Below are positions 60,437 to 61,021 of a stretch of DNA of 64,000 nucleotides, piece after piece. The translations under genes and the position numbers were made by a program. The stretch's first letter is position 1, and every line of letters begins with the position of its first letter. The stretch is from the IMG/VR virus record IMGVR_UViG_3300007512_000025, positions 13,428 through 77,427 of that record. One strand, given 5' to 3'. The stretch is from a virus. Below the pieces are notes generated by a model. That model saw only the letters and a list, made by a program, of their open reading frames with translations, searched no databases and was not told where the DNA came from.

Positions 60437-60465
60437 TTGACAATGCCGTAGGCTTATGGTATATT
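60437..60465 (+). promoter_or_regulatory. Sigma70-type promoter for the RNA cluster
   Basis: A-tract, TTGACA-17-TATATT with TG extension; predicted start near 60472. Confidence 0.7.
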
Positions 60466-60471
60466 ATAGAA

Positions 60472-60571
60472 GTGATGGGGGCAGTGAGTTCCCGCCCGTG
60501 ACGAAAGCCGGAAGGTTCATCCCCCGTGTGACGAAAGCGTGGAGTAGGTTCTGCCTCGTTGTTCCCATCAC
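60472..60571 (+). ncRNA. Structured ncRNA 1 with twin GTGACGAAAGC elements
   Basis: 12-bp closing stem GTGATGGGGGCA/TGTTCCCATCAC beginning at the predicted TSS. Confidence 0.5.
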
Positions 60572-60582
60572 CCTTTAAAACT

Positions 60583-60750
60583 GGAAGGCGGGCATCCTCA
60601 GAGATGCTGCATTGTTCTTTGAGAAATGTGGGGAGTACAGACCAGAGGGGTTGCCTACGGGCAACAACGTGGTTGCGTAAGCGTGGTCGAAGTAATGACC
60701 TGTTAGGCTGTACTCAGTTGAGGGAAGTTGGGAACCCTCAACATCTTTTT
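60583..60750 (+). ncRNA. Structured ncRNA 2
   Basis: GAGTACAG/CTGTACTC, GTTGCC-TACG-GGCAAC, GGTC/GACC and GTTGAGGG/CCCTCAAC stems followed by a T-run. Confidence 0.5.
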
Positions 60751-60925
60751 GGAAGGGCTTTGTGAGTGGCACACACCACAATATCAAAGGTTGAAAATTG
60801 GTAGTTTAGCTGTGTGGTTAAATTATTCAGTCGCTGGAGCGACTGCTGCTATGCCCAGAGAGCGCAAGACCGTTTAGCGATGGTTGCAGTTCAGACGGTG
60901 GTTCGATTCCACCCCCTTCTTGCCA
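60751..60925 (+). ncRNA. Oversized tRNA-like RNA (175 nt)
   Basis: GGAAGGG/CCCTTCT acceptor stem, TGTG-AGTGG-CACA D-like arm, GGTGG-TTCGATT-CCACC T arm, ends GCCA. Confidence 0.55.
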
Positions 60926-60926
60926 T

Positions 60927-61002
60927 TCCGACATAGCTCAGTTGGTAGAGCAGATGACTGTTAATCATCGGGTCGTAGGTTCAAGCCCTACTGTCGGAGC
61001 CA
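60927..61002 (+). tRNA. trnN: tRNA-Asn(GTT)
   Basis: Canonical 76-nt cloverleaf: TCCGACA/TGTCGGA, anticodon loop CT-GTT-AA, TTCAAGC T-loop, encoded CCA. Confidence 0.95.
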
Positions 61003-61021
61003 TTTTTAGGAGAATTTAATT

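What the first reader, a model, noticed from the sequence alone, without database searches (positions are those of the whole stretch)
60751..60925. Oversized tRNA-like RNA directly upstream of tRNA-Asn
Seen: a 7-bp acceptor stem (GGAAGGG/CCCTTCT), a D-like arm with GG loop, a canonical T arm (GGTGG-TTCGATT-CCACC) preceded by GAC as in tmRNA 3' ends, and a terminal GCCA one base before tRNA-Asn. About 120 nt of extra hairpins replace the anticodon/variable region (ACCACA/TGTGGT, TATCAA/TTGGTA around a loop containing TTGAAAA, CAGTCGC-TGGA-GCGACTG). It lacks the G3-U70 alanine identity and is about half tmRNA length. Inference: a tRNA mimic (decoy for anticodon nucleases or tRNA-sensing defences), an intron-containing tRNA, or a new tRNA-like ncRNA.
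Basis: partly seen in the sequence, partly recalled or inferred. Interest (0 to 1): 0.7.

Follow-up and report, generated by a model that had tools for sequence, protein, structure and literature searches.

The report
Giant serine-tRNA-shaped RNA in marine phage
An uncultured marine phage carries, one base upstream of its asparagine tRNA gene, a 175-base gene for an RNA that keeps the ends and elbow of a serine tRNA but has about 100 extra bases and no usable anticodon arm, so it is most likely a tRNA look-alike with a job outside decoding; that job is unknown.

Summary
At 60751-60925 (+) there is a 7-bp acceptor stem, a 4-bp D arm with an AGUGGCA loop, a canonical T arm and a UGCCA tail. tRNA-Asn starts one base later.

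- **Not chance:** a matching acceptor strand plus a canonical D arm arose in 0.12% of shuffles.
- **Missed by standard finders:** ARAGORN at default settings and all 4227 Rfam models find only tRNA-Asn.
- **Likely origin:** the acceptor stem (GGAAGGG/CCCUUCU, with G1.U72) is identical to that of a phage tRNA-Ser(UGA). The D loop (GAGUGG), the G before CCA and a UUGAAAA heptamer in the middle also match serine tRNA. I read it as a remodelled tRNA-Ser(UGA).
- **Not an ordinary or intron-split tRNA:** no 5-bp/7-nt anticodon arm exists, and one excision cannot make one.
- **Not tmRNA:** there is no G3.U70, and related phages carry canonical tmRNAs that look nothing like it.
- **Distribution:** it is absent from 50 related phage records, including the syntenic site of the closest one. 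Near-identical copies occur in marine metagenomes from three other studies.
- **Limits:** no divergent homologue was found, so the inner helices have no covariation support. Function is inferred only.

Earlier notes of this scan describe other oversized phage tRNA look-alikes on other DNA, not this sequence.

The parts
60437..60465 (+). Sigma-70-type promoter (TTGACA, 17 nt, TATATT with TG) that heads the RNA cluster
   Evidence: 11 of 12 consensus matches. Kept in the closest relative G006.
60472..60578 (+). About 100-nt leader RNA with two GACGAAAGC hairpins. It is not part of the tRNA-like gene.
   Evidence: In G006 the promoter and leader are followed directly by a coding gene. BLAST aligns only the first 50 nt, at 92% identity.
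60583..60750 (+). Multi-helix RNA ending in a terminator-like hairpin (60718-60742) and a T run that abuts the tRNA-like 5' end
   Evidence: Terminator scan. A metatranscriptome contig of a relative covers 60613-60752 and then diverges.
60751..60925 (+). The 175-nt tRNA-shaped RNA gene as a whole
   Evidence: Present with 0-2 differences over the covered parts in contigs of three other studies.
60751..60757 (+). Acceptor stem, 5' strand (GGAAGGG)
   Evidence: Pairs with 60914-60920, probability 0.96. Identical to the acceptor of a phage tRNA-Ser(UGA) in L205/L207.
60761..60775 (+). D arm (UGUG / AGUGGCA / CACA). The linker before it has 3 nt instead of the usual 2.
   Evidence: Shuffle test p = 0.0012 together with the acceptor. 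The GAGUGG aligns with the D loop of tRNA-Ser genes. Not favoured by the thermodynamic ensemble.
60782..60803 (+). Anticodon-arm remnant: a 6-bp stem with a 10-nt loop holding UUGAAAA (60791-60797), the loop sequence of tRNA-Ser(UGA)
   Evidence: Not a 5-bp/7-nt arm. Pair probability only 0.02.
60828..60845 (+). 7-bp hairpin with UGGA loop, a candidate long variable arm
   Evidence: Probability 0.96, z = -3.8. The natural variant A60842G turns U-A into U.G and keeps the pair.
60860..60892 (+). 13-bp interrupted hairpin with UAGC loop, an extra domain with no tRNA counterpart
   Evidence: Pair probabilities: outer and inner parts about 0.92, middle three pairs 0.68.
60897..60913 (+). T arm (GGUGG / UUCGAUU / CCACC)
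   Evidence: probability 0.99. This is the only part matched by Rfam models and by the tRNA-Ser model R2.
60914..60925 (+). Acceptor 3' strand (CCCUUCU) and 5-nt tail U-G-CCA, one base longer than the usual discriminator plus CCA
   Evidence: The phage tRNA-Ser(UGA) of L205 has CCCTTCT followed directly by G.
60927..61002 (+). Canonical tRNA-Asn(GUU) with encoded CCA, one base downstream
   Evidence: ARAGORN. Rfam RF00005, 70.9 bits.

Best explanation
This is a real gene for a non-decoding, tRNA-shaped RNA that evolved from a class II serine tRNA, tRNA-Ser(UGA).

**What it keeps:** the half of a tRNA that processing and charging enzymes read.
- the acceptor/T-arm helix
- the D-loop/T-loop elbow
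- a G just before CCA
- at least one long extra arm

**What it has lost:** decoding geometry.
- The anticodon arm is lengthened and irregular, with a 10-nt loop.
- The region between the anticodon arm and the T arm has grown to 79 nt and carries two stable hairpins.

**Inferred mechanism:**
1. It is transcribed together with tRNA-Asn, by read-through from the strong upstream promoter.
2. RNase P cuts at 60750/60751 and at 60926/60927.
3. The 3' end is trimmed back to the encoded CCA, leaving a stable RNA of about 175 nt.
4. That RNA occupies, or is acted on by, a factor that recognises the top half of a serine-type tRNA.

My single best guess for its role is a mimic or decoy that ties up a host factor acting on tRNA. 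A seryl-tRNA-synthetase substrate that works off the ribosome is the main alternative.

**Status of the steps:** the anatomy and the likeness to tRNA-Ser are shown. Transcription, processing, charging and the partner are all inferred.
For: - The tRNA frame is beyond chance: acceptor plus canonical D arm, p = 0.0012. The T-arm motif is unique to this gene and tRNA-Asn in 64 kb.
- Core positions fit a tRNA when read from the sequence: A at the start and end of the D loop, GG in the loop, a UUCGAUU T loop, and G/C at the 15/48 positions.
- After in-silico removal of the extra bases, ARAGORN calls a class II-type tRNA at default threshold in 1497 of 8100 constructs; shuffled controls (320-2324) show the calls rest on the fixed parts, including the 60828-60845 hairpin used as variable arm.
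- The acceptor stem is identical on both strands, including G1.U72, to a phage tRNA-Ser(UGA) (L205/L207). GAGUGG in the D loop, UUGAAAA in the middle and G before CCA all match tRNA-Ser(UGA) genes.
- All frame stems are perfectly paired, whereas the differences from a tRNA are large insertions. Neutral decay would be expected to give mismatches in stems instead.
- Contigs from three other marine studies carry it with 0-2 differences. The stretch just upstream is replaced or riddled with gaps in the same runs. One of the two variants keeps a pair in the 60828-60845 hairpin.
- It sits 1 nt from a canonical tRNA on the same strand, in the usual layout of a multi-tRNA precursor.
- Related phages carry other irregular tRNA-shaped genes, so such RNAs are a habit of this lineage.
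Against: - No divergent homologue was found. There is therefore no covariation for any helix and no proof of selection beyond near-identity among strains.
- The thermodynamic ensemble does not favour the D arm or the anticodon-like hairpin (probability about 0), and the whole fold scores only z = -1.88.
- A covariance model built from five phage tRNA-Ser(UGA) genes matches only the 3' part, 60857-60922: 9.3 bits, E = 0.04.
- The linker before the D arm and the 3' tail each carry one extra base, which could impair processing or charging.
- A terminator-like hairpin lies directly upstream.
- The one RNA run laid showed no contig over the gene. That is not evidence of silence, but it is also not evidence of expression.
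- The closest relative lacks the whole cassette, so it is dispensable for the lineage.
Confidence: 0.5

Rival explanations
1. It is a decaying pseudo-tRNA: a former tRNA-Ser(UGA) gene disabled by insertions, carried along with tRNA-Asn in a recently acquired cassette and without a function of its own.
For: - It is absent from the syntenic site of the closest relative and from 50 related records.
- One-base insertions sit at two sensitive places, the 8-9 linker and before G73.
- The anticodon stem in the tRNA-Ser register has two purine-purine mismatches.
- No homologues were found, and the region is a hypervariable array of small genes.
Against: - Every frame stem (7 + 4 + 5 pairs) and the 7-bp hairpin are perfectly paired. 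Decay normally shows as point mismatches, not as about 100 nt of added, partly well-folding sequence.
- Phage genomes rarely keep 175 nt of junk.
- The sequence is more constant across metagenomes than the stretch just upstream.
Confidence: 0.17
2. It is a decoding tRNA-Ser(UGA) whose gene is interrupted by one or more introns that are spliced out to give a normal tRNA of about 90 nt.
For: - The frame and the UUGAAAA motif are those of tRNA-Ser(UGA).
- Phage tRNA genes with unexplained 'introns' are in print for Lak megaphages (PMC6784885).
- Relatives have a tRNA frame with a conserved insert of about 115 nt at the anticodon-loop position.
Against: - At least three separate segments would have to be removed: before the anticodon hairpin, after it, and after the variable arm.
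- No single excision gives a 5-bp/7-nt arm.
- The pieces are far too small for group I or II introns, and no ribozyme family matches.
- Bacteria have no known enzyme for protein-dependent tRNA splicing (established knowledge).
- Excision trials gave no anticodon call above shuffled controls.
Confidence: 0.08
3. It is the 3' domain of one longer RNA, running from 60472 or 60583/60644 to 60925. The tRNA-like end would serve as a processing or stability module.
For: - A single strong promoter lies 280 nt upstream, and none is visible directly in front of the gene.
- A second 7-nt partner for the acceptor 3' strand lies at 60644, and ARAGORN prefers it at lowered thresholds.
- A contig of another study keeps 60624-60918 as one block with a single difference.
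Against: - The leader occurs alone in G006.
- The middle RNA occurs without the tRNA-like part in a metatranscriptome contig.
- A terminator-like hairpin and T run end exactly at 60750.
- Only the 60751 partner is followed by a D arm.
Confidence: 0.08
4. It is a miniature tmRNA-like molecule. It would be charged, enter stalled ribosomes and add the 14-residue tag AGATAAMPRERKTV, read from 60833-60877.
For: - An open frame starts with an alanine codon after AGUC, and its stop codon lies in a hairpin loop, as in tmRNA.
- ARAGORN reports this tag at 80% of its threshold.
- Two relatives of this phage encode tmRNAs.
- The two natural variants are conservative in that frame (T to A, R to K).
Against: - There is no G3.U70 pair.
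- It has a true D stem and no helix joining the tRNA domain around the frame.
- The tag lacks the hydrophobic LAA-type end.
- Nothing is found at ARAGORN default or 85% threshold, and no Rfam tmRNA model matches beyond the T arm at 10.6 bits.
- The 14 sense codons are open by chance about half the time.
- It shows no likeness to the relatives' tmRNAs: they were among the 50 records that model R1 searched without a match (sequences).
Confidence: 0.04

Closest known systems
Class II tRNA-Ser(UGA) of phages and bacteria (Rfam RF00005)
   Same: - The 7-bp acceptor stem is identical to a phage tRNA-Ser(UGA), including G1.U72.
- GAGUGG in the D loop, the UUGAAAA anticodon-loop sequence, a stable extra hairpin where the long variable arm sits, a canonical T arm and G before CCA.
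   Different: - It is 175 nt against about 88 nt.
- The anticodon arm is lengthened, with a 10-nt loop.
- It has a 79-nt 'variable region' with a second, 13-bp hairpin.
- One extra base sits in the 8-9 linker and one before the G.
- It is not detected by ARAGORN, the Rfam tRNA model or a tRNA-Ser model as a whole.
Allo-tRNAs and other irregular serine-type tRNAs (Mukai et al. 2017, PMC5389517)
   Same: These are serine-type frames with long extra arms, found in bacteria and phages. Some forms have possible five-stem junctions, failed in translation assays, and were proposed to be regulatory RNAs or linked to toxin-antitoxin systems.
   Different: Allo-tRNAs are defined by an 8/4 or 9/3 acceptor/T-stem split and are about 90 nt. 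Here the split is the canonical 7/5 and the RNA is twice as long.
Lak megaphage tRNA genes with 'enigmatic introns' (Devoto et al. 2019, PMC6784885)
   Same: Both are oversized tRNA genes in phage genomes with conserved inserted sequence and no known splicing route.
   Different: In the Lak cases one insert is removed in silico to give a typed tRNA with an anticodon. Here no single excision does so.
tmRNA (Rfam tmRNA clan CL00001: RF00023 from memory; RF01850)
   Same: An acceptor/T-arm tRNA-like domain with encoded CCA, plus a short open frame whose stop codon lies in a hairpin loop.
   Different: It has no G3.U70, it has a real D stem, no enclosing helix or recognised pseudoknots, an atypical tag end, half the length, and no model match. 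Relatives' true tmRNAs are unrelated.
YrlA, the tRNA-like bacterial and phage Y RNA (RF02553)
   Same: It is a non-decoding RNA that mimics the tRNA elbow.
   Different: - In YrlA the ends form the Ro60-binding stem and the acceptor-like stem is closed. Here the ends form the acceptor stem.
- The 26.7-bit Rfam match (cut-off 69) joins this T arm to the D arm of tRNA-Asn and is an artefact of two adjacent tRNA-type genes.
- No TROVE/Ro60 gene was found in the fragment.

Membership tests
tRNA (RF00005) | 7-bp acceptor stem stacked on a 5-bp T stem with a UUCRANY loop | tested here: met
   pair probabilities 0.96 and 0.99.
tRNA (RF00005) | D arm with a GG loop at the right distance from the acceptor stem | tested here: inconclusive
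   Present in the sequence with shuffle p = 0.0012. However, the linker is 3 nt, and the ensemble prefers another hairpin.
tRNA (RF00005) | Anticodon arm of 5 bp with a 7-nt loop | tested here: not met
   No such arm exists anywhere except the T arm.
tRNA (RF00005) | Reaches the family's score with standard finders | tested here: not met
   ARAGORN at default settings and the Rfam gathering and E-value searches find only tRNA-Asn.
Class II tRNA-Ser | Serine-type acceptor stem with G73 and a long variable arm, the elements SerRS reads (PMC5389517) | tested here: inconclusive
   The stem is identical to a phage tRNA-Ser(UGA), and a 7-bp extra hairpin is present. However, an extra U precedes the G, and the tRNA-Ser model R2 matches only the 3' part at 9.3 bits. 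Charging cannot be tested with these tools.
tmRNA | G3.U70 alanine identity pair | tested here: not met
   Position 3:70 is A-U in the only well-paired register.
tmRNA | Tag reading frame with resume codon, found by tmRNA finders | tested here: inconclusive
   A frame is reported only at 80% of the ARAGORN threshold, and not at 85% or default. Rfam tmRNA models match the T arm only.
Group I intron in a tRNA gene | Intron core (P3-P8) of about 200 nt or more inserted in the anticodon loop | tested here: not met
   There is no Rfam intron match at E up to 10. The extra sequence is split into pieces of 5 to about 50 nt.
YrlA / Y RNA | Ro60-binding stem formed by the RNA ends, and a Ro60 (TROVE) gene in the genome | tested here: not met
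   The ends form an acceptor stem. The Rfam hit is far below cut-off and spans two genes. No TROVE gene was found in G000, which is a 43% fragment.

The most novel reading that the evidence does not exclude
The RNA is still charged, most plausibly with serine, because the synthetase reads the acceptor end and the long arm rather than the anticodon. It would then work off the ribosome's normal decoding path, in one of two ways. It could be an amino-acid carrier or sink. Or it could be a stripped-down trans-translation-like tagger that uses the 14-codon frame at 60833-60877.
Probability: 0.08. Interest if true: 0.8.

Novelty: new variant of a known kind. Interest (0 to 1): 0.45.

Why it matters
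Phage tRNA genes are usually read as codon-usage helpers or as spares against host nucleases that cut tRNAs. This one is a serine-tRNA frame that has doubled in size and lost its decoding geometry but kept every stem intact.

If it is expressed, it adds to growing signs that phages use tRNA-shaped RNAs for other purposes, and that gene finders miss them. Relatives in the same lineage carry a second, unrelated oversized tRNA-shaped RNA that is conserved, plus tmRNAs and other odd tRNAs. That makes this marine phage group a promising place to look for what such RNAs do.

For this single locus the evidence is anatomical only. No homologue was found and there is no expression data.

Tried and rejected
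**Homologue searches, all empty**
- BLAST against 50,697 phage records gave only tRNA-Asn and T-arm matches.
- nhmmer over 80 loci next to the neighbouring methyltransferase found nothing.
- BLAST and the single-sequence covariance model R1 over up to 50 related phage records gave only 20-nt T-arm matches.
- Exact-pattern scans found nothing in viral contigs, metagenome contigs (42, 43) or one genome per prokaryote species (44, 74).
- A size-and-acceptor pattern scan returned only normal or tandem tRNA-Ser and tRNA-Tyr genes. It gave no giant relative, but it did supply the tRNA-Ser comparison.
- There is no paralogue or repeated insert in the window.

**Reads laid on the region**
- The RNA run had no contig over the gene, and several DNA runs left parts uncovered. 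I draw no conclusion from either.
- The high depth at 60668-60715 in one run was not explained.

**Excision trials**
- I made 8100 in-silico deletions and ran them through ARAGORN.
- ARAGORN called a tRNA in 1497 of them, but in 320-2324 of the equivalent constructs with a shuffled middle.
- The test therefore shows only that the frame is tRNA-grade. It does not identify an anticodon.

**Other checks**
- The tRNA-Ser covariance model R2 matched only the 3' end.
- Searches for Ro60/TROVE, RtcB, RNA ligase and Tpt1 genes in the 77-kb fragment were negative. The fragment is about 43% of the genome.
- I considered the giant-armed, aspartate-type tRNA-like family that earlier notes report in Bacteroidota and their phages. 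I rejected it because this RNA has no GUC loop and a class I-type D arm, and the phage uses sigma-70-type promoters. I held no sequence of that family for a direct comparison.

Full report
**Setting.** The window is part of a 77.4-kb viral contig, estimated to be 43% of a genome of about 180 kb. All genes lie on one strand. They include a PolIII-alpha-type DNA polymerase, a DnaB helicase, UvsX, ribonucleotide reductase, GroEL, thymidine kinase and several DNA methyltransferases. Hundreds of related contigs exist in IMG/VR, and the runs holding this stretch are mostly marine. No cultured phage is close.

**The observation.**
- a 7-bp acceptor stem, 60751-60757 with 60914-60920, whose first pair is G.U;
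- a 4-bp D stem with loop AGUGGCA (60761-60775);
- a T arm GGUGG/UUCGAUU/CCACC (60897-60913);
- a tail U-GCCA, then one spacer base, then a canonical tRNA-Asn(GUU).

A T arm of this form occurs only twice in the 64-kb window. In 5000 dinucleotide shuffles of the 400 nt upstream, a partner for the acceptor 3' strand arose in 25%. A partner followed by a canonical D arm arose in 0.12%. The 5' end at 60751 is therefore real. A second partner at 60644, which ARAGORN prefers at lowered thresholds, is at chance level.

ARAGORN at default settings and all Rfam families miss the gene. The weak YrlA match (26.7 bits against a cut-off of 69) joins this T arm to the D arm of tRNA-Asn and is an artefact. 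The tmRNA match covers the T arm only.

**Inner structure.** The nearest-neighbour ensemble strongly supports four elements:
- the acceptor stem (0.96);
- the T arm (0.99);
- the 7-bp hairpin 60828-60845 (0.96, z = -3.8);
- a 13-bp hairpin at 60860-60892 (about 0.9).

It prefers hairpins 60760-60781 and 60800-60827 instead. D arms of true tRNAs are often mispredicted, because tertiary contacts hold them. The sequence argument therefore still favours a tRNA-type elbow, but only probing or covariation can settle it. The whole molecule folds only slightly better than shuffles (z = -1.88).

**What it derives from.** A size-and-acceptor pattern scan of viral contigs returned ordinary phage tRNA-Ser genes. 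These show that GGAAGGG/CCCUUCU followed by G is a serine-tRNA acceptor end. Two identical loci (L205, L207) carry one tRNA-Ser(UGA) that has exactly this stem, including the G1.U72 wobble.

Aligned with five such genes, the RNA shares three further features:
- the D-loop GAGUGG;
- the heptamer UUGAAAA (60791-60797), which in tRNA-Ser(UGA) is U33, the anticodon UGA, A37, A38 and the first stem base;
- the T arm.

A tRNA-Ser of a related phage (G001) has the acceptor GGAAGAG with a U discriminator.

Relative to these tRNAs the RNA has:
- one extra base before the D stem;
- about 5 nt before and about 24 nt after the anticodon hairpin;
- a re-registered anticodon stem (6 bp, 10-nt loop);
- about 47 nt after the candidate variable arm;
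- one extra U before the G.

A covariance model of the five serine tRNAs cannot bridge these insertions and matches only the 3' part (9.3 bits). Descent from tRNA-Ser(UGA) therefore rests on the four shared motifs and not on a model score.

**Not an ordinary or intron-split tRNA.** No 5-bp/7-nt arm exists apart from the T arm. The only 5-bp partner of the strand behind the D arm lies at 60813-60817, which leaves 79 nt before the T arm. At least three separate pieces would have to be removed to restore a 90-nt tRNA. None of them resembles a known intron or ribozyme. Systematic excision trials were called tRNA by ARAGORN no more often than controls with a shuffled middle. This shows that the frame is tRNA-grade and that no anticodon can be assigned.

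**Not tmRNA.** There is a 14-codon frame (60833-60877) that begins with an alanine codon after AGUC and ends with a stop codon in a hairpin loop. ARAGORN reports it only at 80% of its threshold, and with a poor 5' domain. The molecule lacks G3.U70, has a true D stem, and has neither an enclosing helix nor an LAA-type tag end. Two related phages (G008, G028) encode canonical tmRNAs of 408 and 332 nt with G3.U70 and ...LAA tags. These bear no resemblance to this RNA.

**Distribution.**
- The closest long relative (G006; polymerase 84% identical) keeps the promoter and the 100-nt leader but goes straight into a coding gene. The stretch 60579-61005, holding the multi-helix RNA, the tRNA-like gene and tRNA-Asn, is therefore an insertion in a hypervariable array of small genes.
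- Model R1 found no copy in 50 related records.
- All exact-pattern scans of viral, metagenome and genome collections were empty.
- Logan contigs of three other marine studies carry it almost unchanged: 60624-60918 with one difference, 60735-60919 with two, and 60669-60879 with none. In those same runs the sequence just upstream is replaced or gapped.
- Of the two variants, A60842G keeps a pair in the 60828-60845 hairpin as U.G. G60858A lies in a weakly paired stretch.
- A metatranscriptome contig of a relative covers the upstream RNA (60613-60752) and then diverges. It gives no information on the tRNA-like gene.

**Lineage context.** Fetching the tRNA clusters of relatives showed that irregular tRNA-shaped genes are common in this group. 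The clearest is a 178-191-nt RNA in at least three distinct contigs, in two of them right after tRNA-Leu(UAA).
- It has a class I tRNA frame with a conserved domain of about 115 nt at the anticodon-loop position.
- It shows compensatory changes in two acceptor pairs and one T-stem pair.
- Its insert is unrelated to the one studied here.

Print precedents are the 'enigmatic introns' of Lak phage tRNAs (PMC6784885) and irregular serine-type allo-tRNAs, some of them inactive in translation (PMC5389517). Earlier notes of this scan describe many other oversized phage tRNA look-alikes on other DNA. None shares sequence with this one.

**Reading.**
- Most likely (about 0.5) this is a functional, non-decoding tRNA look-alike derived from tRNA-Ser(UGA). 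It would be matured by the tRNA-processing enzymes together with tRNA-Asn and would act through the tRNA top half that it preserves.
- Whether it is a decoy, a charged carrier or a scaffold is not shown. No RNA-repair or Ro60 gene in the fragment points either way.
- A decaying pseudo-tRNA is the main rival (0.17).
- A domain of a longer RNA (0.08), an intron-bearing tRNA (0.08) and a mini-tmRNA (0.04) are less likely.
- The remainder (about 0.13) is unassigned.

**Verdict.** The feature is real, and its tRNA ancestry is identifiable. It is a new variant of a known kind of RNA. Interest is moderate, because it is an orphan with no covariation or expression evidence.

Noticed in passing
L182:1524-1713 (-), L198:1257-1446 (+), L200:1982-2159 (+); also L196 and L199: A second, unrelated oversized tRNA-shaped RNA of 178-191 nt occurs in related phages. 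In two of the three forms it lies 4-5 nt after tRNA-Leu(UAA). It has a class I tRNA frame with a conserved domain of about 115 nt, possibly pseudoknotted, at the anticodon-loop position. There are compensatory changes in two acceptor pairs and one T-stem pair. ARAGORN does not call it, and Rfam, run on one copy (G009), finds nothing.
   Followed up: partly
L177:163-570 (G008) and L193:260-591 (G028): Two related phages encode canonical tmRNAs with tags ANNNNHFEAVALAA and ANNNNHFEQRLAA.
   Followed up: partly
L187: about 2806-2893 (G008): Right after tRNA-Leu(UAA) lies an irregular tRNA-like gene of about 88 nt with a G1.U72 acceptor stem and encoded CCA. Read by eye, it has a CUUAUAA loop (anticodon UAU), no obvious D arm and a long extra region. 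ARAGORN does not call it.
   Followed up: no
L192:379-476 (G028): ARAGORN calls a 98-nt tRNA-Asn(GUU) that by eye has a long extra arm, an unusual shape for asparagine.
   Followed up: no
L183:108-270 (G033): After tRNA-Arg there is a short HNH-endonuclease-like coding remnant (CANCH motif), followed by an orphan T arm plus acceptor 3' strand. It looks like a tRNA gene disrupted or duplicated by a homing element.
   Followed up: no
window 60472-60578 and L164:1508-1608: The promoter-proximal RNA of about 100 nt with two GACGAAAGC hairpins is kept in the closest relative, with a longer closing stem and a different interior. There it directly precedes a coding gene, so it behaves as a 5' leader element.
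   Followed up: partly
window 60613-60752: The multi-helix RNA upstream of the tRNA-like gene appears in a marine metatranscriptome contig of a relative, with 6 differences. That contig diverges right where the tRNA-like gene begins. In one viral metagenome, 60668-60715 has very high summed depth, which I could not explain.
   Followed up: no
window 60804-60819 and 60872-60885: The motif GUUUAGC, followed by 2-4 nt and then UGGUU, occurs twice inside the tRNA-like RNA. It could be two copies of a protein-binding site or the trace of an internal duplication.
   Followed up: no
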